This document shows, one piece after another, positions 11,396-43,164 of a DNA stretch of 64,000 nt. Numbering within the stretch: the first letter of the stretch is position 1; each line of letters opens with the position of its first letter. The position numbers and the translations under genes were made by a program. The stretch is from Polyangia bacterium (GTDB lineage: Bacteria > Myxococcota_A > Polyangia > JAAYKL01): NCBI GenBank assembly GCA_046484285.1, contig JAWOBP010000098.1:23345-87344 (forward strand), in the 5' to 3' direction. The notes beneath the pieces are model-generated. The model was not told the DNA's origin. It ran no database searches and saw only the letters and a program-made list of their open reading frames with translations.

Positions 11396-12904
<1,509 letters not shown>

Positions 12905-14024: not shown

Positions 14025-15554
<1,530 letters not shown>

Positions 15555-25498: not shown

Positions 25499-26629
25499 CT
25501 ACAGACCTTCGATCTCCACCTTCTTCTCGGCGCTTTTCAAAGGTAGATAGAGGATCATCAAAGCCGGATCTTTGGCCATCGGCGGTTCCTCGAGCAGCAT
25601 CACGCGCGGATCTCCGGAAGGTGTGCGGCCCTCGGCCATCGCGCCGCCTTCGAGAGTCTCGAGCAGCGAGGAGACGCTGCTCACCGGGCCCCGGTGGACG
25701 ATGCGCACCGCCTCGGTGGGAGGCAGCGTCTCGGTCGGCCTGTCGGTCGGCGCTCCGCCGCCCACAGTGGGGCAGGGGGCGGGAATCTCCACTTCCTGGC
25801 CGCCAACCTCGCCGCGTACCACCCTTCGCGCCGGAAAAGAGATCAGGCTCGGCTGATCGGTCACCGGCGGGATCGGAAGCTCGAAGGCGCGGGAGTCGTA
25901 GGCGTCGAAATCGACTCTCTCCATCCGTTCGTCCCAGATCGTCTCGCCGCCGTGAGAAATCGTGCGCCGCCAGGGCACGCGCATCTTCTTCGACTCGCCC
26001 CACTCGGGGATTTCTACCTCCCAGTGGGTCTTGTTCCCCATCGAATCCTTGACCCTGATCTTCGCGAGCCTCAGCAGGCCGGAGTTGTCGGAGTAGGCCG
26101 CGCGAATTCGGTGATTCGATCTCTTGGGACGGATCTGGACCACCGCGCACCGCTCTCCGTCGATCGTGACGGGATCGCGCATCGTGAAGTTGGCGTCCAG
26201 CTTGGCCGCGTCGCCGGCTGGAAAGGTCAGCCCCACCAGGATTCGGACCGGCGTTACCCACAGCGACTCCTCGGGAGTGCAGCGCGCCGGCACGTCGTGG
26301 ACGATCTTGCGGCAGCCGTCCATGGAGTAGACGTACGAGATCCCCTGCTCGACGTAGTCGAGGCGCCAGCGCCGGGGACCGCCGAGCATGTAGGAGACCG
26401 GAAAGCCGCGATCGCCGACCGTGGCGTCGGCCTCGATCTTCACCTCGGCGCCGGCCAGCCGCAATCGCTCCAGACCGCCCATCGCATCGAACGAGCGCCT
26501 GATGATCGAGATCGCCTGCTCGGACTCGCTCACCTGCGGCTCCTGCGGCTGAGGCGGAGGCGGCGCGGGTCCTCCGCAACCGAACAGCGTCAGCGCGCCC
26601 AGGATGACAGCCATGTACGCTCTGCACAT
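25499..26629 (-). CDS. Hypothetical periplasmic lipoprotein
   Basis: Lipobox LFGC plus a Pro-rich linker. No confident family. Convergent with the TPR giant. Last gene of the minus-strand array. Confidence 0.5.
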   Translation of the reverse strand: MCRAYMAVILGALTLFGCGGPAPPPPQPQEPQVSESEQAISIIRRSFDAMGGLERLRLAGAEVKIEADATVGDRGFPVSYMLGGPRRWRLDYVEQGISYVYSMDGCRKIVHDVPARCTPEESLWVTPVRILVGLTFPAGDAAKLDANFTMRDPVTIDGERCAVVQIRPKRSNHRIRAAYSDNSGLLRLAKIRVKDSMGNKTHWEVEIPEWGESKKMRVPWRRTISHGGETIWDERMERVDFDAYDSRAFELPIPPVTDQPSLISFPARRVVRGEVGGQEVEIPAPCPTVGGGAPTDRPTETLPPTEAVRIVHRGPVSSVSSLLETLEGGAMAEGRTPSGDPRVMLLEEPPMAKDPALMILYLPLKSAEKKVEIEGL

Positions 26630-26717
26630 CTCTCGTCTCCTCGGTTGATCTGCCCCCGGCGGGGGCGGCGCAAAGCAGTGTAGCGGTTCGTTCCGATCGA
26701 GTCGAGCTTCGCGGTCG

Positions 26718-27227
26718 CTACCTGCCTCGGCCCTCGCGCGCGCCGGTGGCCAGCGAGCGCAGGGTCAGCAGCATCGCCAGCGCGATCCCTGCCAGCGGAG
26801 CCACCATGAACAGCACGATCAGGGCGGTGCTCGGCAGCGAGACAACCGGCTCGGCGACATTGGTCTGGTAGATCAGCTGGTAGACCGCCAGGAAGAAGAC
26901 GTCGAGCAGCAGAAGCGCGGTCTCGACGATGCCGCGTAGCTTCTCCACCGCGATCGATCTGCGCTCGGGGGTGGAAAGCCAGTAGCTCTTGCCGGGGACC
27001 GAGAGCATCCGGTCGCTCATCCGGGGCAGCCGGGCGTGCAGCAGGACGAAGGCCAGGTTGGCGGCCCCCAGCACGATCAGCCACTCGGCGACGAACAGCG
27101 AGACGCCGGTTCCGCCCCGTCCCGGCTCGGCGCCCAGTTCGACGGGCAGCTGTCCGCGGGTCGCCAGCAGGTAGCCGACGTGCACGGCCAGCGGAACGAT
27201 CCACAGCACTCGTCCGAGATGCTTCAT
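26718..27227 (-). CDS. Small 4-TM integral membrane protein, translationally coupled to the upstream FHA-protease
   Basis: Start ATG at 27225-27227 overlaps the upstream stop (ATGA). 169 aa with four hydrophobic helices. The long ORF 26718-28034 was trimmed because its first ~270 aa are Arg-rich shadow-frame sequence. Confidence 0.6.
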   Translation of the reverse strand: MKHLGRVLWIVPLAVHVGYLLATRGQLPVELGAEPGRGGTGVSLFVAEWLIVLGAANLAFVLLHARLPRMSDRMLSVPGKSYWLSTPERRSIAVEKLRGIVETALLLLDVFFLAVYQLIYQTNVAEPVVSLPSTALIVLFMVAPLAGIALAMLLTLRSLATGAREGRGR

Positions 27228-28516
27228 CTGGGCTGCGGATATCGCGCCCCGATCGACGGGAAGAGCGGTTGCAACAGGTCGATCCTCATTCCAAAGTTGT
27301 AGCCGGCCAGCGCCTGGCCGTTCTCGATGTATCCTCCCGAGTTGATCCCGATCACGTAGCCGGCCGAGTCGAAGATCGGGCTGCCCGAGGTTCCGCTCGA
27401 GGAGAAGGCGGAGTGCTGGAGCAGGGTGTTTTTTCCGAAGTCCCCCAGCTTCTGGTCGAAGCCGGTCACGCGCCCAATATCGCCCTTGACGAAGGTCGCC
27501 TCGGGCGCGTTCTCGCGGTTGAGCCTGCCGGGAAAGCCGTAGAGGAAGACCGGCACGCCGGGCGCCACGTGCGAGAGCTGGGAGGGCGGAGCGATCGAGC
27601 AGATGTGCTGCAAGCGGGTCGCGACGCGGACCAGGCCCACGTCGGGGGAGATGCGCCCCTCCTGGTAGCCGGGGTGCGCCACGGACTGCACGACGCGGTA
27701 ACGGGCGTTGGGCACGCCGTTCATCAGCGCCCAGACCGAGCCGAAGTGCCGCCGGCCCGCCAGCAAGCAGTGGGCGTTGGTCGCCAGCAGGTCCGGCCCG
27801 ACGGCGAAGGCGGTGCAGTAGCCGTCGAGCTGGGCGCTGCCGAGCGGGCTGGGTGCCGGGCTGCCGGCCAGCAGGAAGACCGCGTAGCGATTGCGGGCGG
27901 CGATGCTGCCGCCGGCCGCGTCGCCGTAGCTGACCTGCTGGATGACGTTGACCGCGCTCGGTTTCTGCCAGATGTACCAGGCCGTGATCGCGACGCCGAT
28001 CACCGCCAGCGAGACCGCTGCCAGCACAATCCATTTCAGTCGCGAGGAGGTGCTGCGCACCTTGCGGTCGACCAGCGCCTCGAAGTACTCGGTGGACTTG
28101 CTGGTTCCCGAGACGCGCCCCAGCCCGGCCTGGGCCAACGCCTGCTGGATCAGCATCCCCACCGTGCGCTGGCCGTACTTCTTCTCATCGGGCGGGCGCT
28201 TCTCGGCCGCGGTGATCTCGACGCGGAACGCGGGACCGTCGCGTCCGAGCCGCACGGTTTCGCTCGGCTCCAGGCGCCGCGACTCGATCCGCTCGCCCTC
28301 GACCCAGGTGCCGTTGGTCGAGCCCAGATCCACGATCCGAGCCGTGTCGCCCTCGGCGCGGATCTCGGCGTGGCTGCCCGAGACAAGGCCGTCTTCCGGC
28401 CTGTCGAAGACCAGGTCGTTGCCGGGAGCGCGACCGAGCCGGATGCGCCGCTCGTCCGCGAAGCTCCGCCTGTTGCCGTCGCGCGCACCGCCGATATGGA
28501 CGACCGTCAGCTTCAC
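27224..28516 (-). CDS. FHA-domain / transmembrane / trypsin-like serine protease fusion
   Basis: N-terminal FHA motifs (GRAPGNDLVFD...VSGSHAEI...STNGTWVNG-like STNGTWVEGERI). One TM (LKWIVLAAVSLAVIGVAITAWYIW). C-terminal chymotrypsin-fold protease with His (TNAHC), Asp (DVGLVRV) and Ser (GTSGSPIF). Confidence 0.75.
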   Translation of the reverse strand: MKLTVVHIGGARDGNRRSFADERRIRLGRAPGNDLVFDRPEDGLVSGSHAEIRAEGDTARIVDLGSTNGTWVEGERIESRRLEPSETVRLGRDGPAFRVEITAAEKRPPDEKKYGQRTVGMLIQQALAQAGLGRVSGTSKSTEYFEALVDRKVRSTSSRLKWIVLAAVSLAVIGVAITAWYIWQKPSAVNVIQQVSYGDAAGGSIAARNRYAVFLLAGSPAPSPLGSAQLDGYCTAFAVGPDLLATNAHCLLAGRRHFGSVWALMNGVPNARYRVVQSVAHPGYQEGRISPDVGLVRVATRLQHICSIAPPSQLSHVAPGVPVFLYGFPGRLNRENAPEATFVKGDIGRVTGFDQKLGDFGKNTLLQHSAFSSSGTSGSPIFDSAGYVIGINSGGYIENGQALAGYNFGMRIDLLQPLFPSIGARYPQPR

Positions 28517-28633
28517 TGGCTCGTTCTCCGATCGAGAATCGAGCGGATGATATCAACGGCCCACGTGTCGGGCAACGCCGGATCCCGTCCAGAGAGATGT
28601 ACCACAATCGACTGATGTGGTGCGCAAGCAGGA

Positions 28634-30988
28634 TCAGCGCCCCCTGCGGCGCGTGAATCGGCTGCTGCCGACCAGGAGCACGACTCCCAGGCCGAGAGCG
28701 CCGATCGACATCCAATCGAACGGGAGCTCTGACCTCTCGGAGCCGCGGCCATTACTTTCGATTCTTTCCATACGTTGCTCGAGGCTGTCGACCCGTGAGC
28801 TGAGAGCGGCGTTCTGCACGCGCAGGTCGAGATTCTCTCGCTCGAGCTTTTCGTTCAGCCCTATTATCGCGGCCAGCGCCACGCCGTCGGCGTCGACGGT
28901 TGCGATCGACAGCTCGTCGTCGCCTAGCCCGAAGGCGGGACCGAAGTCCTGGGCGACAGGTCCCATGTGGCGTACTCCGTCAGGTTCCGATTTGTATTTC
29001 CAGGTCGTGACAGGTATCGCCGCGAGCTTGTCGAGCACCTTCGAGGTGTCGACGCGCTCGAAGCTTTCCTTCTTGTTCCTGTCGCTGACGTTGTTCCAGG
29101 ATCCGCCGCCGGAGCCCACGTATACACCCGAGGACATGGCGCTGTTCGTGTAGAAGTAGACTCCTCCGGCGGCGCGTGCGATGAATCTGTTTGGATTTCC
29201 GCAGTTGACCGTGGAGGTCGTGTCGCTCTGGTCGGACCAGACCCAGCAGCCTTTCTCTTCGGCCCTGGCTCGGTAGCCGTGGGCGAAGGAAGAGGTGCCG
29301 CTAGCGAGGTTGCCGTATCCGCCCGGGACCGTGGCCCAATCACCACTGTAGCACGAGTTGTACTGTCCGCCGCCGATCGTGGAGTAGGTTCCACTCATGA
29401 TTTCGTTGGTGTCTCCGCCCAGAATGGAATTGTACGTTCCCTCGTTCTCGACGTAGTTGTCATTCCCGCCAGCGACCACGGAGAAGTTCGATTGGTAGAC
29501 GGTGTTGTCGTAGCCACCACCCACCGTGCCGCCGATGCCGCCGGCGCGGTTGGAAAAACCGCCTCCCACGGTCGCGTACATGCCGTCGGCGCGGTTGCTG
29601 TCTCCGCCGCCCACGGAGGCGTACGACTGAGCTGCGGGATTCGAGTCGCCGTCTCCGGCCTCGTTTCCGGAGCCGCCGGCCACCACGCCGAAGTCGTCGA
29701 AAACGACATTGGGATACTCCTGGGTGGAGTTCACCCAGTAACCGCCTCCGCCGATGAATGCGGACACGGCGCCATCGCTCGAGCGGTTGCCCTCGTAGCC
29801 CCCGATGTAGGTCGACCCCTGGTTCGAGTCGTTGTGCGGTATGTACCTCGCGGCGGTGAATCCACCGGCCTGGAATCTGAGCGTGGTGTCGTCCGTCGTG
29901 CCGATCGCGTCGAACGACGGGTTGGTGCCGCTGTTGCCGGACAGCGCCCAGTAGAGGTCGCTGTTGTGCGTGTCGCAGTCGCTGCAGTTCTCCGGCAGCG
30001 AGGTGCAGCTACCGTCGCCCGAGAGGTACTGGCCGGCGGTGCAAATCGTCTGGGCGTTGGTGTCGGGCGGCGTAGAGCAGGTAAATGAGCCCGAGGTGGG
30101 ATTGATGCTCGAGACGAACTCGCCGGTGTTGCACGCACCGCTGAGAGAGACCTGGATCAGATCGGTATCCACGGAGAACTCGTCGCTCGCCAAGTCGAGC
30201 CCGTAGCCGGCCGTGTAGGTAGCGCCGGTGTCCTCCGCAGTGCAGCTGATCACACCCGACGCGCTGATGTTCGACACGAAGTAGCCGTTGCCGCAAGGTC
30301 CGCCGCTGATAACCGGCGAGTACTCGTCGGCGTGGTCGTGGTTGCCTTCGGCCACCGTGCCTGCGGTGTTGCCGAAGACCACCGACAGCTCCGGATTGCC
30401 GGCCACCCAGTCCTTGTCGAGGCCCGCGCCTGCGTAGACGTCGGTGAGCGTGCCGCCGTCCGCCCCCGTGCTGGTGACGTCCACGTCGCAGACAGGGCCG
30501 CCGTCCGGTTCCCAACCGCGCAGGAACTGGTCGCCGCCGCAAGAAAAATCGAGGGTTGGTTGGATGTCCTCCGCGACCATGTCTCCGATCTGTCGGCAGA
30601 AGCGCGCCTCCTCGGCGAAGGGGACGGAGGCCAGCCGGATTCGGTCCATCTCCTCGTCGGCCCCCACGGTGATGCCGAGCCACAGCTCGGGGTAGGGCAG
30701 CAGATCCTCGAACAGCAAGGAATTGAGCGAACCGAGGTAGACGGTGAAAAAGCCGTCCAAGACATCCACCTGGTTGGATCCGCTGTAGAGCTCCGACCAG
30801 ATCGGGCCTGCGCCCGTTTCTGTGTCGTAGATAGCGAACCGGATGTCGACCCAGCCGTCGATCGTGTCGCCGAATTCGTCGGTCAACACGCCCTGGACCG
30901 GAATCAGGTCCGGCACCTCGGCGGCGGCGCCGGTCACACGGCAGACAGCCAAACCCAGGATCGCTGCGCTGATGGCAAGCCTTCTCAT
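28634..30988 (-). CDS. Fibre-like secreted protein with Gly/Asn-rich ~14-aa repeats and C-terminal Peptidase_S74 (intramolecular chaperone auto-processing) domain followed by a TM anchor
   Basis: Signal peptide. Repeats of the form ..VGGG.SN.A.G..A. C-terminal block NNVSDRNKKESFERVDTSKVLDKLAAIPVTTWKYKSEPDGVRHMGPVAQDFGPAFGLG...AIIGLNEKLERENLDLRVQ matches the S74 tail-spike chaperone signature (S-D-x-x-x-K). Ends with a hydrophobic helix plus RRRGR. Confidence 0.75.
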   Translation of the reverse strand: MRRLAISAAILGLAVCRVTGAAAEVPDLIPVQGVLTDEFGDTIDGWVDIRFAIYDTETGAGPIWSELYSGSNQVDVLDGFFTVYLGSLNSLLFEDLLPYPELWLGITVGADEEMDRIRLASVPFAEEARFCRQIGDMVAEDIQPTLDFSCGGDQFLRGWEPDGGPVCDVDVTSTGADGGTLTDVYAGAGLDKDWVAGNPELSVVFGNTAGTVAEGNHDHADEYSPVISGGPCGNGYFVSNISASGVISCTAEDTGATYTAGYGLDLASDEFSVDTDLIQVSLSGACNTGEFVSSINPTSGSFTCSTPPDTNAQTICTAGQYLSGDGSCTSLPENCSDCDTHNSDLYWALSGNSGTNPSFDAIGTTDDTTLRFQAGGFTAARYIPHNDSNQGSTYIGGYEGNRSSDGAVSAFIGGGGYWVNSTQEYPNVVFDDFGVVAGGSGNEAGDGDSNPAAQSYASVGGGDSNRADGMYATVGGGFSNRAGGIGGTVGGGYDNTVYQSNFSVVAGGNDNYVENEGTYNSILGGDTNEIMSGTYSTIGGGQYNSCYSGDWATVPGGYGNLASGTSSFAHGYRARAEEKGCWVWSDQSDTTSTVNCGNPNRFIARAAGGVYFYTNSAMSSGVYVGSGGGSWNNVSDRNKKESFERVDTSKVLDKLAAIPVTTWKYKSEPDGVRHMGPVAQDFGPAFGLGDDELSIATVDADGVALAAIIGLNEKLERENLDLRVQNAALSSRVDSLEQRMERIESNGRGSERSELPFDWMSIGALGLGVVLLVGSSRFTRRRGR

Positions 30989-31008
30989 GGTTGTTCTCCC
31001 TCGTTTTG

Positions 31009-31437
31009 CTACTGATTCACCAGGGCGCCTACCCCGAGATCCGCCCTATATGAGCTGCTCTGCGTCGACGCCGACACTCCGCCGCCGACCGTCACCTTGC
31101 ACTCGAAATGGGACGAGCTCCGCAGGCCGCCGCCGGAGATCGTTCCGTTCATCACAGCGGTGGGCGGCTCGGTGTCCGTGTCGCTATCGGTATCGACATC
31201 CGTATCCGTGTCGACATCGGTATCGATGTCGGAATCGGAATCGGTGTCAGCGTCCGCGTCGGTATCGGCGTCAGCGTCCGCGTCGGAATCGGTGTCAGCG
31301 TCCGCGTCGGTATCGGTGTCCGCGTCGGCGTCACCCGAGGGGGCGTCATCGGCTTCCGGCACGATCAAGGAACAGCCGCAAGCCATGGCCAGGACCAGAA
31401 GACCGACCGCCAAGTCAGCGACCAGAGAGCTGGACAT
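31009..31437 (-). CDS. Short lipoprotein (142 aa) carrying only the N-terminal leader and Asp-X stalk module of the giant paralog family
   Basis: Leader ...[16 protein letters not shown] and a (DA/DT/DS)n stalk are almost identical to the N-termini of the 31593 and 35734 genes. 55 unique C-terminal residues. May be a truncated paralog. Confidence 0.5.
31170..31335. repeat. Hexanucleotide (GTCGSY/ATCGGY)n microsatellite encoding the Asp-X stalk
   Basis: Direct reading. Less perfect than the other copies. Confidence 0.8.
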
Positions 31438-31592
31438 CGATTTCCTCCCGCAAATAGAGCCTTTTGAACCGTGAATTATCCTATCCTACTTGTTCTTCGC
31501 CGAACAATGAAGAGAAAAAGCGCGCCTGTTGTGGCGGGCGTGTGTGTCGACCAAAGAGCGTAAGCGCGGTCTATTTCAAGGGAAAAGAGTGG

Positions 31593-35603
<4,011 letters not shown>

Positions 35604-35733
35604 CGATCTCCTCCCGTGTCTCGATGTCGTTCGTTCCGACGAATTAGATTCGAGCTGATTGTAACCGGAAAAGGACTAAGGTGGACAGGAGTTTGTGGGG
35701 CGGTTCGGCAAGGGCGGAGACGAGGGTTGTGCC

Positions 35734-38700
35734 TTACCAGTTGTGGTACTCCAGCGCGCCGATGTCGTACCAGGGCGGATCGCCGGCGCCGTCGTCGGCG
35801 CAGCCCACGCTCTCGCGAGGAGTGTCCTCGTAGTCGAAGGCGGGCGCGCCGGTGCCGTAGGCCGAGTCGATGCACGTGCAGGAGCTGCCGTCGAGGTGGA
35901 AGTCGCCGTTGGCCGGATCGACCAGCGGAGAGGCGTCGTCGCCGCTGTCGTAGTTGCCGTAAGAGCAGTAGCCGTAGGTGTAACCACTCCAGGTGGAGTC
36001 GACGTAGCTGCAGTCGACGTGCGTACTGGAGGCATTTGGGTAGAAGTTGGGATAGTCCTTGATGGCGGTGTTGTCGAAGAAGACAGAGTTCAGCACGTCG
36101 AGATTTCCGACATTCAGGCGGCCGCAGCCATAGTAGTAGGCGCAGTTCGAGTAGAAGGTGCAATTTATCATGTCGACATAACTGTAATATGAGTATGAAG
36201 CACCGTAGTAATCGGCGCGATTGTCATCGAAAATCGTGTTTTCGATAGTAGCGTCGACGTAGTCGGAGCTGTTTCCCTCAAAATAGAGCGCGCCACCTAG
36301 TCCATCTGGGTCGGTGGGGCTCGCCGCGGAGCAATCGACACCCGGATCGGAATCCGCAGCCCAGTTCGAAGCAAAGAGGCTGTTCGAGATGTCGATTGCG
36401 CCGCCTTCCACCGCGATAGCGCCTCCGTACATGAAATCGGTGCTGTTGGCGACGGAATTGTTTTGGAACTCGCAATGATCGAACGAGGAGTAAGCGTCGG
36501 AGCCGCTCACCACGACGGCCCCGCCGTAACGGTCGGCGTTACAGTATTGGAAACTGCTGTATTCGAACACCGCGCTGGTGTCGCTTACGTACACCGCGCC
36601 GCCACCTTCGAGCACGCCGTCGTCGTTGTCGGAGTTTTCCACGGCGTTGTAGTAGAAATCCAAGTCGAAAAAGCGCGGGTTGGCCGAAGCTCCGTAGATG
36701 TAGGCCGCGCCACCGCGTTCCTGGGCGTTGCAGAACCTGAAATACACGTGCTGCAGGTCCGGGCTCGTGTTGTACAGGTAGAATCCACCACCGTATCGAT
36801 AGATGCTGTCCTGAGTCGAGTAGTCGGCCTCCCCGTAGTAGACCCGCACGCCGCGCAAGACGGTGCCGGGCCCGCAGGAACTGTCGCAGGTAAGCGCGTG
36901 ATAGACGCGGTTGGACGAGTTTCCGTCCTGTTGACCAAACAGACTGGTTGTATTGCCGTAGTGGTCCGATTGCCGGACAGAGGTTTCCGTTCCATCGAAA
37001 CCGCCGGTCATGTGGACGTTGTCCCTAAGATGTATGGTGTTAAAGGAATTACTATCATAAAGGTAATACGTGCCTCCAGCGACCCATACCTCGCAATAGC
37101 CCTTGGAGGCCGAGGAGGACTGGTTGGAGGCGTCGTCGAGCGCGGTCTGGATGCCCGTCGTGTTGTCGTTGTAGGCGTCGGCCCAGCTGGTACCGTTATT
37201 GGCTCCGCTAGCGTTTCGATCCACGTAGACGATGCAGTCGTCCTCGGCTTCGAACGCGCCTTGGTCGGTGATCCTCCCGGAATATCCGTCGCCCGGCATG
37301 TCGTAGCGCGGCTCGCCGCGGATGTCGTAGTCGGGAGAGCCCGTGCCTCCGCAGCTGTCGCAGCCGACGTCGATCAGCGGCGAGGTGCTGCTGAGGCGCA
37401 GGTCGACCAGCTGGTAGCTGTCGCCGGCGGTCACGAAGTCGGTCAGGTCGCCCCAGACCCGGATCTCGTAGCCGTCGTTGCTCGCGATCGGCAAAAAGCG
37501 CGCGTCCGTGTCGCGAGGCTTGACGTACATGTGGCTGAGGCTGCCCGCGACCCTGGGCCGATCCTCGTCGCGCAGCACGGTCTGGCCGACCTCGGGCAGG
37601 TAGTAGACCCGCTCCCACTGACCGGTCGCGGTCAGAAGAGGCTCGGCATCGAGGTAGAACAGCGGGTCGGTGTCCAGCATGCCGGTGCCGCCGCTGCACG
37701 TGCCGCAGCCGCCGGCCACGTCGCTCCAGTTGAGCTCGATGGTTCCGCCGGAATGCATGATCTCGGGATCGGTACCCCCGGTGGCCACGTCGCCCCACAT
37801 GATGGTGTTGTCGATCGTGAATACCGAAGACGAGCCGTTGACCCTAATCGCTCCACCACCGTACGCCTCGTTGGCGAAGAAGGTGCAGTTCTTGATGTCG
37901 GCGGTTGCATCATAGCAGGAGATACCGCCACCGTGATTGTCGCGGACATGGTTTCCGACGAAAGTGCAGTTCTCGAACGAGGCGTATCCAACCAGGTATG
38001 CGCCTCCGCCGTAGTAGTCGCCCGTGTTGCCGGCAAAGACAGTGTTTGTGACGTGCACGGATCCGTAGCTGTTCACGAACAGGCCTCCGCCGCTAAGATC
38101 CGAGGAGTTATTGACGATTTCATTGGCAGCGATAACGCAGTTGTCGAAATCTGGAGAGCCGCCTGCGACATAGACTCCGCCGCCGCTGTGAAACGCTTTG
38201 TTTTCAGAGATCACGTTCTGGGCAAACAGCGGAGAATGGCTTGTATCGATGTAGATACCACCACCGTCCCAGTCGGGGCTGGCCCCGTCGGCGTAGCCGC
38301 CGGTGATCACGAATCCGCTCAAGACCGACTCGCTGTCGCAACCCGTCGACGAGGTGCAGCTGACCACGTGATCCACCGCGCCGAATCCGTCAAGCAGCGT
38401 GAGATTGGCCTTTGAATCGCGGTCCGCGAAGGAGGTCTCCCAGCCGGCGAACCCACCGTAGAGCTTGACGCCGGAGCGCATCTCGACGGTGTAGGACGAG
38501 AAAGAACTGACGGCGTATCTGCCCTCGGCCACCCAGATCTCGCAGGGCGGATCCTGGTTGTCGGCGTAAATGATCGCGTTTTCGAGGTCGTTGTATGCAT
38601 CGGCCCAGCTCTTCCCGTCGTTGGCGCCCGTGGCGAGCTGATCCACGTAGACAATGCACTGCTCGCAGTAGGTGCCGTAGTAGTTGGGCACCGCCGAGCA

Positions 38701-41700
38701 GTCACAGGTATCGGTCGGCTCTTCGCAGGTGCCGCCGTTGAGACAGGTGTCGCCCGAGCCGACGCAGCTGCCGTTGCCGTCGCACTCGTCGGTCCAGGTG
38801 CACCACTGGTTGTCGTCGCAGCCGGTGCCGTTGGGCTCGTAGTTGTCCAGACAGACACCATTTCCGTCGCAAAAGTCCGGATCGTCGCACTGGGTATCGC
38901 TCGAGCTTCCGCAGGAGGTGCCGTAAGCCGCGTAGCCGTTGTCGGTGCACGATCCGCTGCCGTCGCAGTAGTCCTGGTTGATGCAATCGGTGCCGGTGTC
39001 TCCGCAGGTGGTGCTGGTGCCGTAATCATTGGTCTGACAGGTGCCCGCTCCGTCGCAGGTGTCCTGCCCGGAGCACTCGGTGGGACCGTCTCCGCAACTG
39101 GTGCCGTCGGAGACGAAGCCGTAGTCCTGGCACGAACCGGATCCGTCGCAGTAGTCCTGGTTGATGCACTCTGTGCCGTCGTCGCCGCAGGTGACGCTGG
39201 AGTCGAAGTCGTTGGGCTGACATGTTCCCGCTCCGTCGCAGGTGTCCTGCCCGGAGCACTCGGTGGGACCGTCTCCGCAACTGGTGCCATCGGAGACGAA
39301 GCCGTAGTCCTGGCACGAACCGGAACCGTCGCAGTAGTCCTGGTTTGTGCACTCGGTGCCGGTGTCTCCGCAGGTGGTGCTGCTGGGCTCTAGGTTGTCG
39401 AGGCAGGTTCCGGCGCCGTCGCAGGTGTCCGGGTTGTCGCACTCGCTGTCGCCCGGATCTCCGCAGCCGGTGCCCACGGACTCGAATTCGTCGACCGGGC
39501 AGTCGGGTCCGGAGCCGGTGCAGGTCTCGGCCACGTCGCACTCTCCGGCTGCCTCGCGGCAGACCACCGTGCCCAGCTCGTACTCGTCGGCCGGGCAGGT
39601 GTCCGAGGAGCCGGTGCAGGTCTCGGCCACGTCGCAGTCTCCGGCCGCCTCGCGGCAGACGGTGGTCGTCTCGAAGTGGTTCGGCTGACAGGTTCCCGCT
39701 CCGTCGCAGGTGTCCTGTCCGGAGCACTCGGCGGGTCCGTCTCCGCAGTCGGTTCCAGAGGAAGTGAAGCAGTCGTCGTTCTGCTCGTCGCAGGTGTCGT
39801 TGCACTCGCCTCCGCCCTCGCAGCGCGTGCCGCCGGCGAACTCGTGCTGGCAGGCTCCGTTGCCGTCGCAGGTGTCGGCTCCGTTGCACCACAGGTTGTC
39901 CTCGCACTCGCCGTCCGGATCGTCGCCGGCCGCGATCGGCGTGCAGTAGCCCTCGGAGCCGGCCAGGTCGCAGGCCTCGCACAGGCCGCCGCAGGAGCCG
40001 TCGCAGCAGACCCCGTCCTTGCAGATTCCCGAGGCGCACTGCGAGCCGGAGGTGCAGGTCGTGCCCAGCGCGTACTTGGCCACGCAGGTGCCGCCGTCGC
40101 ACCAGTAGTCGGTGGAGGGCTGGCAGTCGGCGTTGACCGAGCAGGTGCTCAGGCAGCTCTCCTCGTCGGCGCAGGTCAGGTGCCCGGCGCACTCGGTGCC
40201 GCTCGCGTCCTGCGTGCAGGTGCTGGTCTGTCCGCCCGAGCAGTGCCAGTCGTAGACCAACTCGTCGCCGCCGATCTCGCAGGTGGTGTCGCAGAGCGTC
40301 TCGGGTCCGTAGCGCTCGCAGTATCCCAGGCCGTCGGCGCAGACGCCGGTGCGGCCGCAGCTGGTCGGGTCGGGATTTTCGGTGCAGTCGTTCTTCGGGT
40401 CGCCCAGCGTCTCGCCCTCGCCGTCTGTCGCCACGACCGCCCGGCAAGCACCGGAGCTGTTGCAGACCTGGCAGCTGCCGGCGCAGTCCGGGTCGGAGTA
40501 GGTGGCTCCGTGGAAGCCGACCGTGCCGTCCGCCTCGGGAAGGCAGAGGCCGTCGCTGTTGTCGCAGGTCATGCACTCCCCGGTGCATTCGCTCTCGCAG
40601 CAGTGGTCGTCAACGCACAGGCCGCTTTCGCACTCCGAGCTTAGCGAGCACTCGGAGCCGAGCACCAGGTCGGCGGTGCAGACGCCTGCCTCGCAGTAGT
40701 AGCCTTCCGCGCACTCGTCGGCGCTGCAGCTCTGCTGGCAGGAGCTGTCGTCCGCGCACTGGTAGCCGCCGCAGGCTCCGATGTCCTCCACGCAGGTGCC
40801 GCTCCCGTCGCAGTAGTAGCTGGTGAAGACCGGGTTCTGCGGGTCGGTCGAGTCGCAGATCGGATCCCCGCAGGGGGTGTCCGGCGCCACGTACTGGCAG
40901 GCGCCGCTGATGCAGGTCCCCGTGTGCCCGCAGTCGCTGGCGTCGCTGCAAGCACCGTTGGGCTCCAGCACGCCGTCCAGCGGCTCGCAGAGCTGGCTCG
41001 CCGAGCAGGCCTCGCAGACCTCGCACTCGTCGTCCGGGTCCTCGCCGGCAGGAATCGCGGTGCAGTAGCCCTCGGAGCCGGCCAGGGCGCACGACTCGCA
41101 GAGCCCGGCGCAGTCGCCGTCGCAGCATACGTCGTCCACGCACAGACCGCTGTCGCACTCGTAGCTCTCCAGGCAGCTCTCGCCCAGCACGACCAGCGGC
41201 AGACACGATCCGCCCGGATCGCAGAAGTAGCCGTCAGCGCAGTCGAAATCGTCGACGCAGGTCGCCGCGCAGACCTCCTCGGTCGCGCAGGCGTAGTCGT
41301 TCGGGCACGGCTCGTAGGTCCCCATGATCGTGCAGCCGCCCAGCGTGCCGTCGCAGTACAGCGGCGCCTCGGCCGCGTCGAGACAGGTCGTCCCGCACTG
41401 GTAGTCGCTGCCGCGCAGCTCGCACGCGCTCGCGCCGTCGCAGTCGCCCGTGGTCGAGCACTCGCCGTCCGCACCGGGAGAGCAGTCGTTGGCCGGGTCG
41501 GTCCCCTCCAGCGCCGGAGCGCAGGCCCCCGAGACGCATACCTCGCAGGTGGGGCAGTCGTCGTCCGGGTCGCTGTCGTCGAGCACGTAGGTGCAGACAC
41601 CTTCGAAGCCCTCGATGTCGCAGCGCTCGCACGCTCCGTCGCAGGCCGACCCGCAGCAGACGTCGTCCACGCAGTTGCCGCTGTCGCACTCGTAGTCGTA

Positions 41701-43164
41701 CAGACAGCTTTCGCCGTCGGCCTTGGCCGCGGTGCAGACCTCGTCGATGCAGATGCTGTCGCCCACGCACTCGCTGCTGTCGAAACACTCCATCAGGCAC
41801 GACATCTCGTCGGCGCAAACGAAGCTGCCGCAGGTGCTCTCCTCCGGGGCGCAGCTCCCTTCGCCGTCGCAGAGGTACTCGGTGTAAATGCTGGCGTCCG
41901 GCTCGTTGTCGACGCAGGTCGGGTCGCCGCAGAAGTACTCGGTGCCGCGCAGCTCGCACTCCCCGGTGCCGCTGCAAAAGCCGGTCAGACCGCAACCCAA
42001 CGGATCTTCGTCCTCCGTGCAGTCCTCGGCGTAGTCCTCGCCGTACGGCACGTTCACGCACTCGGCCTCCGGACCGCAGACGTAGCAGACGGGGCAATCG
42101 TTGCGCTCGTCGGTGTTCTCCGGGACCTGCGTGCAGAGCCCCTCGTTGCCGGCGACGTCGCAGGCGTGGCACAGCTCCTCGCAGGCGTTCTCGCAGCAGA
42201 CGCCGTCGACGCAGAAACCGCTTGCGCACTCGCTGTTCAGGTAGCACTCCTCCCCGTCGGTCAACGCGCCGGTGCAGACCCCGTCCTCGCAGGTGAAGCC
42301 ACTCGTGCAGTCTTCCTCGTCGATGCAGGTCTCCAGGCAGGCGTCCAGGTCCGCGTTGCAGGAAAACCCGCCGCAGGTGTGAGAGTCCTCCACGCAGGTC
42401 CCCGCGCCGTCGCAGAGGTGCTCGCTCAGCATCGAGTAGCCGTCCGAGACGTCCGAGCAAAACGCGTCCCCGCAGATCGTGCCGGACGGGTACATGGCGC
42501 AGGCGCCCGACCCGTTGCACATCCCGGTCAGCCCGCAGGTCTCCGGATCCTCCTGGGCGCAGTCCTCCATCGGGTCGGCGCCGTTGGCGACCAGAACGCA
42601 GCCGCCGGCTCCGTTGCAGACCCGGCAGGTATCGCAATCATCCTCGGGGTCGTTTCCGTAAACGTAGTCGGTGCAGATGCCCTCGAAACCCGGCTCGCCG
42701 CAGCTCTGGCAAGGGCCGTCGCAGGCGGTGTCGCAGCACCAGCCGTCCACGCAGAGATCTGGCGATCCGCACAGCTCTTCGGCGTTGGTCTCGTCGCAAG
42801 CGATCGGGCCCGAACCGGTCCCGGTGCCCGTGTCGGTATCGGTATCGGTGTCGGTGTCGGTATCCGTGTCCGTATCGGTGTCGGTGTCGGTGTCGGTATC
42901 GGTATCGGTGTCGGTGTCGGTGTCGGTGTCGGTATCAGCGTCAATATCCGTATCCGTATCGGCATCTGTATCCGTATCGGTGTCGGCATCAGCATCCGTG
43001 TCCACGTCGGTATCCGTGTCCGCGTCGCTGTCGGCGTCGGTATCCGCGTCACTGCTGGTATCGTCCTCGGCCTCCGGGACGATCAACGAGCAACCGCAGG
43101 ACAGACCGACGGCCAGCGAGCACACCGCGACCCATGCAAAGAGGTTCTTGAACATCGATACCAT
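35734..43164 (-). CDS. Giant surface lipoprotein (2,476 aa): leader-CGCS, (DT)n stalk, >=6 tandem ~180-aa Cys-rich modules, ~27/61-aa 4-Cys repeats, two beta-helix domains, C-terminal PPWYDIGALEYHNW
   Basis: Leader ...[15 protein letters not shown]. Repeated module ESC..ECxSGxCVDxVCCxxxCxGxCxxCDxxGxEGxCT.... Tandem 4-Cys repeats (SCGDGPTECSGQDTCDGAGTCQ...). Beta-helix starts CIVYVDQLATGANDGKSWADAY and CIVYVDRNASGANNGTSWADAY. Confidence 0.75.
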   Translation of the reverse strand: MVSMFKNLFAWVAVCSLAVGLSCGCSLIVPEAEDDTSSDADTDADSDADTDTDVDTDADADTDTDTDADTDTDIDADTDTDTDTDTDTDTDTDTDTDTDTDTDTDTDTDTDTGTGTGSGPIACDETNAEELCGSPDLCVDGWCCDTACDGPCQSCGEPGFEGICTDYVYGNDPEDDCDTCRVCNGAGGCVLVANGADPMEDCAQEDPETCGLTGMCNGSGACAMYPSGTICGDAFCSDVSDGYSMLSEHLCDGAGTCVEDSHTCGGFSCNADLDACLETCIDEEDCTSGFTCEDGVCTGALTDGEECYLNSECASGFCVDGVCCENACEELCHACDVAGNEGLCTQVPENTDERNDCPVCYVCGPEAECVNVPYGEDYAEDCTEDEDPLGCGLTGFCSGTGECELRGTEYFCGDPTCVDNEPDASIYTEYLCDGEGSCAPEESTCGSFVCADEMSCLMECFDSSECVGDSICIDEVCTAAKADGESCLYDYECDSGNCVDDVCCGSACDGACERCDIEGFEGVCTYVLDDSDPDDDCPTCEVCVSGACAPALEGTDPANDCSPGADGECSTTGDCDGASACELRGSDYQCGTTCLDAAEAPLYCDGTLGGCTIMGTYEPCPNDYACATEEVCAATCVDDFDCADGYFCDPGGSCLPLVVLGESCLESYECDSGLCVDDVCCDGDCAGLCESCALAGSEGYCTAIPAGEDPDDECEVCEACSASQLCEPLDGVLEPNGACSDASDCGHTGTCISGACQYVAPDTPCGDPICDSTDPQNPVFTSYYCDGSGTCVEDIGACGGYQCADDSSCQQSCSADECAEGYYCEAGVCTADLVLGSECSLSSECESGLCVDDHCCESECTGECMTCDNSDGLCLPEADGTVGFHGATYSDPDCAGSCQVCNSSGACRAVVATDGEGETLGDPKNDCTENPDPTSCGRTGVCADGLGYCERYGPETLCDTTCEIGGDELVYDWHCSGGQTSTCTQDASGTECAGHLTCADEESCLSTCSVNADCQPSTDYWCDGGTCVAKYALGTTCTSGSQCASGICKDGVCCDGSCGGLCEACDLAGSEGYCTPIAAGDDPDGECEDNLWCNGADTCDGNGACQHEFAGGTRCEGGGECNDTCDEQNDDCFTSSGTDCGDGPAECSGQDTCDGAGTCQPNHFETTTVCREAAGDCDVAETCTGSSDTCPADEYELGTVVCREAAGECDVAETCTGSGPDCPVDEFESVGTGCGDPGDSECDNPDTCDGAGTCLDNLEPSSTTCGDTGTECTNQDYCDGSGSCQDYGFVSDGTSCGDGPTECSGQDTCDGAGTCQPNDFDSSVTCGDDGTECINQDYCDGSGSCQDYGFVSDGTSCGDGPTECSGQDTCDGAGTCQTNDYGTSTTCGDTGTDCINQDYCDGSGSCTDNGYAAYGTSCGSSSDTQCDDPDFCDGNGVCLDNYEPNGTGCDDNQWCTWTDECDGNGSCVGSGDTCLNGGTCEEPTDTCDCSAVPNYYGTYCEQCIVYVDQLATGANDGKSWADAYNDLENAIIYADNQDPPCEIWVAEGRYAVSSFSSYTVEMRSGVKLYGGFAGWETSFADRDSKANLTLLDGFGAVDHVVSCTSSTGCDSESVLSGFVITGGYADGASPDWDGGGIYIDTSHSPLFAQNVISENKAFHSGGGVYVAGGSPDFDNCVIAANEIVNNSSDLSGGGLFVNSYGSVHVTNTVFAGNTGDYYGGGAYLVGYASFENCTFVGNHVRDNHGGGISCYDATADIKNCTFFANEAYGGGAIRVNGSSSVFTIDNTIMWGDVATGGTDPEIMHSGGTIELNWSDVAGGCGTCSGGTGMLDTDPLFYLDAEPLLTATGQWERVYYLPEVGQTVLRDEDRPRVAGSLSHMYVKPRDTDARFLPIASNDGYEIRVWGDLTDFVTAGDSYQLVDLRLSSTSPLIDVGCDSCGGTGSPDYDIRGEPRYDMPGDGYSGRITDQGAFEAEDDCIVYVDRNASGANNGTSWADAYNDNTTGIQTALDDASNQSSSASKGYCEVWVAGGTYYLYDSNSFNTIHLRDNVHMTGGFDGTETSVRQSDHYGNTTSLFGQQDGNSSNRVYHALTCDSSCGPGTVLRGVRVYYGEADYSTQDSIYRYGGGFYLYNTSPDLQHVYFRFCNAQERGGAAYIYGASANPRFFDLDFYYNAVENSDNDDGVLEGGGAVYVSDTSAVFEYSSFQYCNADRYGGAVVVSGSDAYSSFDHCEFQNNSVANSTDFMYGGAIAVEGGAIDISNSLFASNWAADSDPGVDCSAASPTDPDGLGGALYFEGNSSDYVDATIENTIFDDNRADYYGASYSYYSYVDMINCTFYSNCAYYYGCGRLNVGNLDVLNSVFFDNTAIKDYPNFYPNASSTHVDCSYVDSTWSGYTYGYCSYGNYDSGDDASPLVDPANGDFHLDGSSCTCIDSAYGTGAPAFDYEDTPRESVGCADDGAGDPPWYDIGALEYHNW
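39044..39410. repeat. Intragenic near-identical 183-bp tandem duplication (two copies plus a diverged third upstream)
   Basis: 39044-39226 and 39227-39409 differ at only a handful of positions (e.g. gccgtc/gccatc, ggatcc/ggaacc). Encodes duplicated 61-aa 4-Cys modules. Confidence 0.8.
42815..43065. repeat. Hexanucleotide microsatellite encoding (DT/DA/DI)n stalk
   Basis: Direct reading of 42811-43070. Confidence 0.9.

What the first reader, a model, noticed from the sequence alone, without database searches (positions are those of the whole stretch)
25499..43164. 18-kb minus-strand array of paralogous giant lipoproteins plus an S74 fibre / FHA-protease / 4-TM cassette: candidate undescribed hypervariable cell-surface system
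Seven consecutive same-strand genes sit behind one AT-rich promoter island (43165-43284). They are: a 2,476-aa and a 1,336-aa lipoprotein with identical modular logic (conserved leader ending CGCS-x-IVPE, microsatellite-encoded (DT)n stalk, tandem Cys-rich modules, two DUF1565-like beta-helices, a conserved C-terminal P-P-W-Y-D-I-G-A motif); an N-terminal-module-only ORF; a fibre protein with a self-cleaving Peptidase_S74 chaperone domain and membrane anchor; a cytoplasmic-FHA/periplasmic-trypsin protease; an ATGA-coupled 4-TM protein; and a lipoprotein. None of these has an obvious enzymatic housekeeping role. The combination of recombining modules, length-variable stalks, a phosphothreonine-reading protease and a phage-fibre-like self-processing protein suggests a surface display or contact system with built-in diversification. 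Such systems support adhesion, kin recognition or cargo delivery in social bacteria. I do not recognise this gene combination as a described system.
Basis: partly seen in the sequence, partly recalled or inferred. Interest (0 to 1): 0.75.

Follow-up and report, generated by a model that had tools for sequence, protein, structure and literature searches.

The report
Composite surface-protein island in a protease operon
The 18-kb array is real, but it is three separable units rather than one machine: a conserved envelope protease operon, fast-evolving stalked beta-helix surface lipoproteins sitting inside it, and a two-gene pair of a small stalked lipoprotein with a self-cleaving fibre.

Summary
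The genes and most described features are present in this Polyangia MAG chromosome. Comparison with about 100 related loci splits the proposed seven-gene system into three units.

1. A vertically inherited core: SHOCT lipoprotein (43285-43857, outside the finding), FHA/TM/trypsin protease, 4-TM protein and a 376-aa lipoprotein. The protease and 4-TM genes stay together down to 39% protease identity, with or without the other genes.

2. Two paralogous lipoproteins (2,476 and 1,336 aa) with a (DT)n stalk, Cys-rich spacers and two right-handed beta-helix modules each. These belong to the Pmp / RbtA / "choice-of-anchor Q" surface-protein class. In relatives the same slot holds 0, 1 or 2 such genes, and they diverge far faster than the flanking genes.

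3. The 142-aa ORF is not a remnant. It belongs to a conserved small-lipoprotein family lying directly upstream of the fibre gene in 18 loci. The fibre has a UspA1-like head, an S74 self-cleaving domain (S635/K640), a coiled coil and a C-terminal TM helix.

The pair is absent from the closest relative and occurs elsewhere without the protease operon. Nothing is phage-derived. (DT)n stalks are a lineage-wide lipoprotein linker, not a system hallmark. Interest is moderate; the small-lipoprotein/fibre pairing is the freshest element.

The parts
43285..43857 (-). SHOCT-domain lipoprotein (190 aa); first gene of the conserved core operon, outside the finding's coordinates
   Evidence: Pfam SHOCT E 5e-6. 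It lies directly upstream of the FHA-protease in L001-L004 and L009. NCBI name 'SHOCT domain-containing protein', MFO8072010.1.
43165..43284 (-). AT-rich intergenic gap (39% GC) with a promoter-like site at 43239-43211
35734..43164 (-). G1, a 2,476-aa lipoprotein. Layout: leader [12 protein letters not shown] stalk (aa 39-118), Cys-rich spacer (aa 119-1502, nt 38659-42810), beta-helix module A (aa 1503-1976, nt 37237-38658), module B (aa 1977-2476, nt 35737-37236)
   Evidence: Module boundaries follow the family consensus YVD...D.GAYE. A disintegrin-like motif appears twice (below the Pfam cut-off).
31593..35603 (-). G2, a 1,336-aa paralogue. Same layout with a short Cys-rich spacer (aa 130-324), module A aa 325-792 (nt 33228-34631) and module B aa 797-1336 (nt 31596-33215)
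   Evidence: DNA blocks shared with G1 reach 81-89% identity. The orthologue in L005/L008 is 83% identical at the protein level.
31009..31437 (-). Small stalked lipoprotein (142 aa): leader [10 protein letters not shown], 54-aa acidic stalk, conserved C-terminal domain G.xSGGG..SS.(N)Y...VGG....S..Y...LGVGA.VNQ
   Evidence: It has its own Shine-Dalgarno sequence, GGGAGG.
28634..30988 (-). Fibre (784 aa). Layout: signal peptide, N-terminal beta-sandwich (aa 28-120), Cys-bearing linkers, UspA1-like GGGxxN head (aa 438-567, nt 29288-29677), S74/ICA domain (aa 635-684, nt 28937-29086; S635/K640), coiled coil (aa 697-746), TM helix (aa 755-775, nt 28664-28726)
   Evidence: A 100% identical protein is named 'tail fiber domain-containing protein [Polyangia bacterium]' by NCBI.
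28517..28633 (-). Intergenic gap upstream of the protease gene, with a promoter-like site (28575-28547, TG-extended -10)
27224..28516 (-). FHA (aa 25-91), TM helix (157-184), trypsin-like serine protease (230-400; H249, D292, S377 invariant)
26718..27227 (-). 4-TM protein (169 aa), start overlapping the protease stop codon (ATGA)
   Evidence: It is co-conserved with the protease in the 23 loci L001-L023, down to 39% protease identity.
25499..26629 (-). 376-aa lipoprotein with no family match; last gene of the core operon, convergent with the 1,769-aa TPR gene
   Evidence: It is conserved in the 11 close loci with sequence downstream of the 4-TM gene (44-87% identity) and weakly in L022 (30%).

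Best explanation
The region is a chromosomal mosaic of three units that share a strand and an envelope location but are inherited separately.

A. Core operon: SHOCT lipoprotein, FHA-TM-trypsin protease, 4-TM protein and the 376-aa lipoprotein. This is a conserved Polyangia envelope module. The cytoplasmic FHA domain probably reads a Ser/Thr-kinase phosphorylation mark. That signal would gate a periplasmic serine protease working with its 4-TM partner. The domains and their conservation are shown. The signalling logic is inferred.

B. G1 and G2 occupy the slot between the SHOCT gene and the protease gene. They are lipid-anchored proteins held away from the membrane by an acidic (DT)n tether and disulfide-rich spacer modules. 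Each presents two Pmp/RbtA-type right-handed beta-helices, most likely as adhesin-like or glycan-binding surfaces. They vary by in-frame slippage of the DT repeat, by duplication or deletion of Cys modules, and by recombination or replacement among paralogues. The variation is shown. The ligand and surface exposure are inferred.

C. The small lipoprotein and the fibre form a conserved two-gene unit. The fibre is exported by Sec and held in the inner membrane by its C-terminal helix. It trimerises on the S74/ICA domain and coiled coil, and cleaves itself at S635 using the S635/K640 dyad. This releases a trimeric fibre with a UspA1-like head. The small lipoprotein, made of a stalk plus a 45-aa tail domain, is the probable docking partner for the fibre's conserved N-terminal domain. 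The gene pairing and the dyad are shown. Cleavage, release and docking are inferred.
For: Core operon (unit A):
- SHOCT directly precedes the protease, 4-TM and lipoprotein genes in L001-L004 and L009.
- The protease and 4-TM genes are adjacent in the 23 loci L001-L023, at 39-92% protease identity. Protease homologues extend to cultured Sorangium at about 32%.
- The catalytic residues H249, D292 and S377 are invariant.
- In distant relatives a Ser/Thr kinase-STAND gene lies two genes upstream.

Giants (unit B):
- Pfam Beta_helix matches at E 8.6e-9, with a borderline Chlam_PMP match.
- 272 homologues at 22-37% identity carry the names 'choice-of-anchor Q', 'parallel beta-helix repeat' or 'outer membrane repeat protein'.
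- A profile of the family hits RbtA (PDB 9cdu) at E 1e-11.
- The AF2 model shows two beta-helices.
- G1 has 13 GG[AG]x and 13 FxxN motifs; G2 has 12 and 9.
- The slot holds 0, 1 or 2 such genes across the clade.
- G1 modules are 42-46% identical to the corresponding gene in L005, while the flanking genes are 92% identical.
- The stalk is 104, 64 or 44 aa in three orthologues.

Small lipoprotein and fibre (unit C):
- The small ORF lies about 20 nt upstream of the fibre gene in all 11 close loci that have enough upstream sequence, and in 7 more divergent loci.
- Representatives of the family are 59-170 aa with the domain at the extreme C-terminus.
- The fibre matches S74, the UspA1 head and the MyRF ICA fold.
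- S635, D636 and R637 are conserved in at least 90% of 49 homologues and K640 is invariant. The coiled coil and terminal hydrophobic, basic tail recur in 11 of 13 homologues, including ones from Chloroflexi.
- The serine/lysine dyad with 5-residue spacing is the catalytic arrangement described for endosialidases and MYRF (PMC3742443).

Separate inheritance:
- The 3.07 kb carrying the small ORF and fibre is an indel relative to L005.
- The pair occurs in L006 with no FHA-protease, 4-TM, SHOCT or 376-aa lipoprotein homologue in the 22-kb locus.
Against: - The same slot repeatedly carries giants or the small+fibre pair in deep branches (L007, L010, L011, L013; in L060 and L069 the pair follows SHOCT, but those contigs end before any protease gene). 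A functional tie to the protease operon, such as processing or shedding, is therefore not excluded.
- G1, G2 and the small lipoprotein share the CS(L/A)IVPE leader, and L006 also places DT-stalk lipoproteins next to a small+fibre pair. This could reflect a shared export or sorting route.
- There is no experimental evidence for lipidation, surface exposure, autocleavage, or binding of the small lipoprotein to the fibre.
- Most comparison contigs are short metagenome fragments, so absences partly reflect truncation.
- Promoter-like sites are consensus matches only (4 found against 1.8 expected).
Confidence: 0.6

Rival explanations
1. This is the first reader's model: all seven genes (plus SHOCT) form one integrated surface-display or contact system. 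The FHA-protease and 4-TM protein would mature, shed or regulate the giants and the fibre in response to kinase signalling.
For: - All genes are on the same strand and tightly packed.
- Giants or fibre pairs recur in exactly this slot in several lineages.
- The giants and the small lipoprotein share a leader motif.
Against: - The core operon is intact without any cargo in L001-L004 and L009.
- The protease/4-TM pair is conserved far beyond the range of the cargo.
- The closest relative lacks the fibre pair.
- The fibre pair occurs without the operon in L006.
- Homologues of the giants are solitary elsewhere.
- A separate promoter-like site precedes the protease gene.
Confidence: 0.15
2. The giants are tethered carbohydrate-active enzymes (polysaccharide lyases, hydrolases or epimerases) rather than adhesins. 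On this view the island is a polysaccharide-foraging or matrix-remodelling locus.
For: The best structural neighbours of the beta-helix model include GH55, GH87, PL6, AlgE4 epimerase, Pel9A and phage depolymerase tailspikes.
Against: - All fold matches are weak and generic (E 1e-5 to 1e-3, 9-13% identity, TM normalised to target at most 0.52).
- No CAZyme family was detected by Pfam or NCBIfam.
- Sequence homology points to the Pmp/RbtA/choice-of-anchor-Q class, which has no known catalytic activity.
- No sugar transporters or other degradative genes lie nearby.
Confidence: 0.2
3. The S74 fibre, with or without its neighbours, is a remnant of a prophage or a tailocin-like element.
For: Peptidase_S74 is typical of phage tail fibres and tailspikes. 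Phage records match the S74 segment at 38% identity.
Against: - Only the 80-aa S74 segment matches any of 50,697 phage records.
- There are no relatives in 2.9 million viral contigs.
- No capsid, tail, integrase or lysis genes occur in the window, and the flanks are housekeeping genes (Lon, FTCD, polyprenyl synthase).
- The family has a signal peptide and a C-terminal TM anchor, and it sits in chromosomes of 3.6 Mb and larger.
Confidence: 0.03

Closest known systems
Chlamydial polymorphic membrane proteins (Pmp), Acinetobacter Rhombotarget A (RbtA, PDB 9cdu/9cdv) and NCBI 'choice-of-anchor Q' beta-helix surface proteins
   Same: - Right-handed parallel beta-helix built from coils bearing GGA(I/L/V) and FxxN motifs.
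- Modules begin YVD..G..DG.SW and end D.GAYE.
- The proteins carry cell-surface annotation.
- Modules are arranged in tandem (PMC11166332 and PMC12643943 for the family descriptions).
   Different: - Anchoring is by an N-terminal lipid plus a (DT)n stalk. It is not by an autotransporter barrel (Pmp), GlyGly-CTERM (RbtA) or a T9SS sorting domain.
- Very large Cys-rich spacer arrays precede the helices.
- Identity to any named homologue is only 22-37%.
Phage endosialidase / tail-fibre C-terminal intramolecular chaperone (Peptidase_S74) and eukaryotic MYRF
   Same: - The S74/ICA domain has the Ser/Lys dyad at +5 spacing.
- The expected mechanism is trimerisation-dependent self-cleavage.
- As in MYRF, the ICA domain is followed by a membrane-spanning helix, so cleavage would free the N-terminal part from a membrane tether.
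   Different: - This is a cellular bacterial protein with a Sec signal and no phage context.
- The released part is a UspA1-like head fibre, not a depolymerase or a transcription factor.
- It is paired with a dedicated small lipoprotein gene.
Trimeric autotransporter adhesins (UspA1, YadA, EibD)
   Same: The GGGxxN left-handed beta-roll head repeats are homologous to the UspA1 head. Support: phmmer E 1e-11, and Foldseek E 3e-4 with 26% identity.
   Different: There is no YadA-type C-terminal beta-barrel anchor (no Pfam hit). Trimerisation and anchoring are instead provided by S74, a coiled coil and a single TM helix.
Staphylococcal Sdr/Clf MSCRAMM serine-aspartate repeat stalks
   Same: A long dipeptide acidic repeat encoded by an in-frame short DNA repeat acts as a length-variable spacer between the anchor and the functional domain.
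   Different: - The repeat is DT rather than SD.
- It lies at the N-terminus after a lipobox rather than before an LPXTG motif.
- The NCBIfam hits cover only the repeat and score far below the cut-offs.

Membership tests
Peptidase_S74 / ICA self-cleaving domain | Match to the PF13884 profile above the gathering score | tested here: met
   E 2.3e-10, 41.1 bits against a cut-off of 22, residues 635-684
Peptidase_S74 / ICA self-cleaving domain | Catalytic Ser with Lys five residues downstream | tested here: met
   The sequence is S635-D-R-N-K-K640. S635 is conserved in at least 90% of 49 homologues and K640 is invariant. The dyad is described in PMC3742443.
Peptidase_S74 / ICA self-cleaving domain | Trimerisation-dependent autocleavage actually occurs | not testable with these tools
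   This needs protein expression and an S635A mutant
Trimeric autotransporter adhesin | C-terminal YadA-type beta-barrel anchor | tested here: not met
   No YadA_anchor hit in Pfam or NCBIfam. The C-terminus is S74, a helix and one TM segment.
Trimeric autotransporter adhesin | Head repeats of the YadA/UspA1 type | tested here: met
   3pr7 at E 9.6e-12 by sequence; Foldseek E 3e-4, TM 0.57 normalised to the target
Chlamydia-type Pmp | GGA(I/L/V) and FxxN repeats on a beta-helix | tested here: met
   G1 has 13 and 13 motifs; G2 has 12 and 9. Chlam_PMP scores 21.3 bits against a cut-off of 20.6 on G2 module B. The beta-helix model supports this.
Chlamydia-type Pmp | C-terminal autotransporter barrel | tested here: not met
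   Both proteins end with the beta-helix motif PPWYDIGA, and no autotransporter domain is hit
choice-of-anchor Q (NF041518) | Profile match above the curated cut-off | tested here: not met
   E 0.1, 12.9 bits against a cut-off of 25, at the extreme C-terminus of G2. Homologues do carry this name.
Rhombotarget A (TIGR04212) | Equivalog score and a GlyGly-CTERM sorting signal | tested here: not met
   13.6 bits against a cut-off of 295, and no GlyGly-CTERM tail. There is only family-level homology to 9cdu, E 1e-11.
   PF07602 is not reported at E up to 1 for either module of G2. PF07602 is among the precomputed Pfam domains of some homologues.
Bacterial lipoprotein | Signal peptide ending in a lipobox Cys | tested here: met
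   Lipoboxes are present by pattern in G1, G2, the small ORF, SHOCT and the 376-aa protein. The Cys immediately before S(L/A)IVPE aligns with canonical LAAC/AAGC lipoboxes in L013 and L007. Lipidation itself was not tested.
FHA-domain signalling protease | FHA and trypsin domains above cut-offs with an intact catalytic triad | tested here: met
   FHA scores 56.7 bits and Trypsin_2 55.4 bits. H249, D292 and S377 are invariant in 27 sequences.
Prophage / tailocin | Neighbouring phage structural, integration or lysis genes, or similarity to phage genomes | tested here: not met
Anti-phage defence systems (PADLOC) | Match to a defence-system protein model | tested here: not met
   The only match is a weak protease-domain hit (E 1e-5) to RT-Protease_XI, and no reverse-transcriptase model was hit by any locus protein scanned

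The most novel reading that the evidence does not exclude
The small stalked lipoprotein and the fibre may be an undescribed two-component cell-surface fibre system, found from Polyangia to more divergent metagenomic lineages. In this reading a pro-fibre tethered to the inner membrane by a C-terminal helix trimerises and frees itself through its S74/ICA domain, a bacterial counterpart of MYRF topology. It is then captured and displayed by a dedicated lipoprotein whose 45-aa tail domain binds the fibre's N-terminal beta-sandwich. In this clade the pair and the variable beta-helix lipoproteins would be clients of the FHA-protease operon in which they are embedded.
Probability: 0.25. Interest if true: 0.65.

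Novelty: new variant of a known kind. Interest (0 to 1): 0.42.

Why it matters
The result replaces an attractive "new seven-gene system" with a testable decomposition.

- It defines a conserved FHA-protease/4-TM envelope module of Polyangia, including Sorangium. The function is unknown, but genetics would be tractable in cultured relatives.
- It shows that a single intergenic slot in that operon is a long-lived site of surface-protein turnover. Repeat slippage and paralogue exchange are documented there between near-identical strains, which is useful for studying surface variation in social bacteria.
- It identifies a strict gene pairing between a small stalked lipoprotein and a membrane-tethered, S74-processed fibre with a TAA-like head. 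This gives the first handle on how the very large family of cellular "tail fiber domain-containing proteins" might be assembled and displayed.
- It warns that (DT)n stalks are a lineage-wide linker and should not be used as a system marker.

Tried and rejected
- Prophage or tailocin origin is rejected. The phage database matches only the S74 segment, viral contigs gave nothing, and the flanks are housekeeping genes.
- A defence system is rejected. PADLOC gave only a generic protease-domain hit.
- The DUF1565, MSCRAMM, RbtA and choice-of-anchor-Q equivalog assignments all fall below their cut-offs.
- The Cys-rich modules have no PDB or Pfam family above threshold. The only signals are weak EGF_2, DUF7107 and disintegrin-like matches.
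- The 376-aa lipoprotein and the 4-TM protein gave no Pfam, NCBIfam or PDB sequence match, even at E up to 1.
- The window's fibre is not on record in the contig index, so the MAG's own contig could not be fetched. G1, G2 and the small ORF are absent from the protein collection as exact sequences, probably because of different start calls.
- A metagenome scan using the alignment of the small-protein tail failed because no stretch was conserved enough. It was replaced by a scan with the fibre N-terminus followed by a local HMM search.
- Literature searches found no description of the FHA-trypsin/4-TM pair or of cellular S74 fibres with TAA-like heads.
- No direct repeats or target-site duplications were seen at the small+fibre indel junctions.

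Full report
**What is there.** The window is about 66% GC and comes from a Polyangia MAG. The fibre, protease, 4-TM protein, 376-aa lipoprotein and SHOCT protein are 100% identical to NCBI proteins from one 96.9-kb contig. Those accessions run MFO8072003-005 and then MFO8072010, which leaves four annotated proteins in between. That matches the fibre, the small ORF, G2 and G1 (inference from numbering).

The minus strand carries the following genes:
- SHOCT lipoprotein, 43285-43857
- G1, 35734-43164, 2,476 aa
- G2, 31593-35603, 1,336 aa
- a 142-aa ORF, 31009-31437
- the fibre, 28634-30988, 784 aa
- the FHA-protease, 27224-28516
- a 4-TM protein, 26718-27227, with an ATGA overlap onto the protease stop
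- a 376-aa lipoprotein, 25499-26629

The flanks are ordinary chromosomal genes: TPR proteins, amine oxidase, GT2, Lon, FTCD and polyprenyl synthase.

**Check of the observation.** Domain calls confirm S74, FHA and trypsin. The giants share the leader (A/S)CGCS(L/A)IVPE. They also share DT stalks of 80 and 94 aa, Cys-rich arrays (237 Cys in G1) and two beta-helix modules each, and both end in PPWYDIGA.

DUF1565 is not hit. G2 module B matches Pfam Beta_helix at E 8.6e-9 and Chlam_PMP at the threshold. An AF2 model of G2 residues 322-1336 has mean pLDDT 80.7. It shows two right-handed beta-helices joined by a small beta insert.

G1 is essentially G2 with about 1,150 extra residues of Cys-rich modules. 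The two genes share DNA blocks of 81% (leader, stalk and first Cys block) and 89% (G2 aa 155-234 with G1 aa 1053-1132). Their beta-helix modules, by contrast, are only 42-44% identical at the protein level.

The SHOCT-G1 gap is 39% GC and holds a promoter-like site. Gaps of 117-155 nt also precede G2, the small ORF and the protease gene, and the last of these has its own promoter-like site.

**Comparative genomics separates the parts.** The FHA-protease family is large: 437 hits from "Myxococcota/Deltaproteobacteria/Polyangia" MAGs. A scan of GTDB species genomes found 52 loci, reaching cultured Sorangium at about 32% identity. I mapped the window's proteins onto these loci and onto loci fetched by exact protein look-up.

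The mapping shows:
- The protease and 4-TM genes are adjacent in the 23 loci L001-L023, which share 39-92% protease identity with the window.
- Every close locus whose contig extends that far (L001-L004, L007-L012) also has the 376-aa lipoprotein and a convergent TPR gene of about 1,750 aa. SHOCT is detected upstream in L001-L004, L007, L009 and L013.
- In L001-L004 and L009 the SHOCT gene directly abuts the protease gene.
- In the closest relatives (L005 and L008, 92% protease identity) giant lipoprotein gene(s) sit upstream of the protease: two in L005, and one visible in L008, whose contig starts just upstream. The 142-aa ORF and the fibre are missing. L005 has 66 nt where the window has 3.07 kb.
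- L010, L011 and L013 have one visible giant in the slot. The one in L013 is a 743-aa single-module version with the leader CSLIVPE, lying directly after SHOCT.
- L007 has SHOCT, a small lipoprotein, a fibre without S74, a TPR protein, and then the protease. In L060 and L069 the small lipoprotein and fibre follow SHOCT.
- L006 has the small lipoprotein plus an S74 fibre, preceded by two DT-stalk lipoproteins with an unrelated body. None of the core-operon proteins (FHA-protease, 4-TM, SHOCT, 376-aa lipoprotein) has a homologue in that 22-kb locus.

On a neighbour-joining tree of the protease, the giant-bearing clade (window, L005, L008) is sister to the empty clade (L001, L003, L009). Cargo-bearing loci (L007, L010, L011, L013) branch deeper. 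The slot is therefore an old site of surface-gene gain, loss and replacement. It is not a recent one-off insertion, and it is not an obligatory part of the operon.

**The giants.** The beta-helix region has 272 homologues at 22-37% identity. Their names are "choice-of-anchor Q domain-containing", "right-handed parallel beta-helix repeat-containing" or "predicted outer membrane repeat protein". Many come from Bacteroidota with T9SS tails, and others from Chloroflexi, Planctomycetota and Lentisphaerae.

The family consensus defines a repeating module, YVD..G..DG.SW ... D.GAYE. A profile of the family hits the crystal structure of Rhombotarget A at E 1e-11. RbtA is described only as a cell-surface protein of A. 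baumannii (PMC12643943). Pmps are beta-helical adhesins built on GGA(I,L,V)/FxxN coils (PMC11166332), and the giants carry 9-13 of each motif.

The Foldseek search returns only generic beta-helix neighbours, both CAZymes and tailspikes, at E 1e-5 to 1e-3. An enzymatic role therefore cannot be excluded, but it has no specific support. The nearest homologue I checked for context is a solitary gene among housekeeping genes.

**Variation in the giants.** Variation is strong and well documented.
- The G2 stalk is 104 aa in the window, 64 aa in L008 and 44 aa in L005, although the L005 and L008 modules are 98-99% identical.
- G2 module B is 89% identical to its L005 orthologue, but module A is only 74% identical.
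- G1 modules are 42-46% identical to the first giant of L005, which resembles G2 more closely (69% and 57%). The flanking genes are 92% identical.
- Tandem 183-nt units inside G1 are up to 89% identical.

These patterns fit repeat slippage, unequal crossing-over and paralogue conversion or replacement. No dedicated diversification enzyme is present.

**DT stalks are not a marker of this locus.** Two more DT-stalk lipoproteins lie in the window. One is at 14025-15710, with a 122-aa stalk and a single beta-helix ending CDIGAFEL. The other is at 11396-12904. Acidic D(T/S/A) stalks follow lipoboxes in many unrelated genes of related loci. What the giants and the small lipoprotein do share specifically is the CS(L/A)IVPE motif just after the lipid-modified Cys.

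**The small ORF and the fibre.** The 142-aa product has a lipobox, a 54-aa acidic stalk and a C-terminal domain of about 45 aa: G.xSGGG..SS.(N)Y...VGG....S..Y...LGVGA.VNQ. An exhaustive HMMER search of 1.84 billion representatives found 14 hits. Eleven are proteins of 59-170 aa with this domain at the very C-terminus. The other three are large repeat proteins that are probably unrelated.

I scanned metagenomes with the fibre's N-terminal domain (42 loci). I then searched those loci with an HMM of the tail domain. The small ORF lies about 20 nt upstream of the fibre gene in 8 of 8 close loci that have enough upstream sequence. Adding the window, L006 and L007 gives 11 of 11. Seven more divergent loci carry a divergent tail in the same position. 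Both genes have strong Shine-Dalgarno sites.

The fibre family has more than 1,000 hits across many phyla, often on Mb-scale chromosomal contigs. Its layout is conserved:
- a signal peptide
- an N-terminal beta-sandwich (pLDDT about 90)
- Cys-bearing linker repeats
- a GGGxxN head homologous to UspA1
- the S74/ICA domain, with S635, D636 and R637 nearly invariant and K640 invariant
- a long helix
- a terminal hydrophobic segment followed by basic residues

The Ser/Lys dyad at +5 spacing is the catalytic arrangement of endosialidases and MYRF, and in MYRF the ICA domain likewise precedes a TM helix (PMC3742443). Only the S74 segment resembles any phage record, and no viral contig encodes a relative.

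**Mechanism (inferred).** The fibre is exported and held by its C-terminal helix. It trimerises and cleaves itself at S635, which releases a trimeric fibre with a TAA-like head. The invariably adjacent small lipoprotein is the best candidate for the receptor that holds this fibre on a membrane through its stalk. The giants are lipid-anchored, stalk-elevated beta-helix binding surfaces. The FHA-protease and its 4-TM partner form a separate envelope protease that is probably responsive to phosphorylation. In distant relatives a Ser/Thr kinase-STAND gene lies two genes upstream. Whether the protease acts on its neighbours is open.

**Verdict.** A looser, long-standing association of variable surface genes with this operon slot is real. 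The components are new members or variants of known kinds. The small-lipoprotein/fibre pairing, and the MYRF-like membrane tether in a widespread cellular fibre family, appear undescribed in the literature I could search. They are the most promising follow-up.

Noticed in passing
window 14025-15710 (-): A third DT-stalk lipoprotein (561 aa). Its (DT)n stalk is 122 aa and is encoded by a near-perfect 12-nt repeat (15125-15469, 93% matches). It has a single Pmp-like beta-helix module ending CDIGAFEL. This shows that the stalk plus beta-helix design is used elsewhere in the genome.
   Followed up: partly
window 11396-12904 (-): A 502-aa lipoprotein with a shorter D(S/T/A) stalk and an unrelated body that has no Pfam match. 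It is further evidence that acidic stalks are a general lipoprotein linker in this lineage.
   Followed up: partly
window 39481-39660 (G1 aa ~1177-1230): Two tandem copies (96-nt period, 86-88% identical) of VCREAAG(D/E)CDVAETCTGS..(T/D)CP.DE. These resemble the disintegrin loop signature (Pfam Disintegrin E 1e-4, 23.5 bits, below the cut-off of 35.1).
   Followed up: partly
window 20168-25477 (+): A 1,769-aa TPR protein with a long, extremely acidic Glu/Pro-rich C-terminal tail encoded by 12-36-nt repeats (24901-25135). It is convergent with the operon and syntenic in close relatives at 62-94% identity.
   Followed up: no
L001 3193-9283; L003 342-1259: In relatives, the region upstream of SHOCT is also variable. 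L001 carries an integrase fragment, an FGE-sulfatase DT-lipoprotein, hypothetical genes and YCII between the tRNA-synt_2-like gene and SHOCT. L003 has a Y1 transposase there. The wider neighbourhood is therefore recombination-prone.
   Followed up: partly
L006 3935-9179: Two DT-stalk lipoproteins (636 and 1,047 aa) are built from tandem ~95-aa repeats of an unidentified domain. The first shares an identical 55-aa leader and stalk start with the small lipoprotein three genes downstream, a case of leader sharing or conversion like that in the window.
   Followed up: no
L007 5546-9343: A 1,265-aa fibre is 72% identical to the window's fibre over its N-terminal 310 aa. It has a completely different C-terminal body, no S74 domain and no Pfam hit, so the fibre's distal part is exchangeable behind a conserved N-terminal domain.
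   Followed up: partly
L080, L081, L083, L093 (metagenome loci): Tandem arrays of three genes each begin with the same fibre-type N-terminal domain. These occur in more divergent lineages, without the small ORF.
   Followed up: no
L018, L019, L021, L023: Distant FHA-protease/4-TM loci share a conserved neighbourhood: a response regulator, a ~1,290-aa Ser/Thr kinase-nSTAND1-FGE-sulfatase protein, phosphomannose isomerase and a thioredoxin-like lipoprotein directly upstream of the protease. The Pfam assignments were made on L019 only; the other three were compared by gene order and lengths.
   Followed up: partly
window 49625-50728 (-): A 367-aa secreted protein has a C-terminal thrombospondin type-3-like Asp-rich repeat (weak Pfam TSP_3 match). 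It lies next to the lon gene.
   Followed up: no
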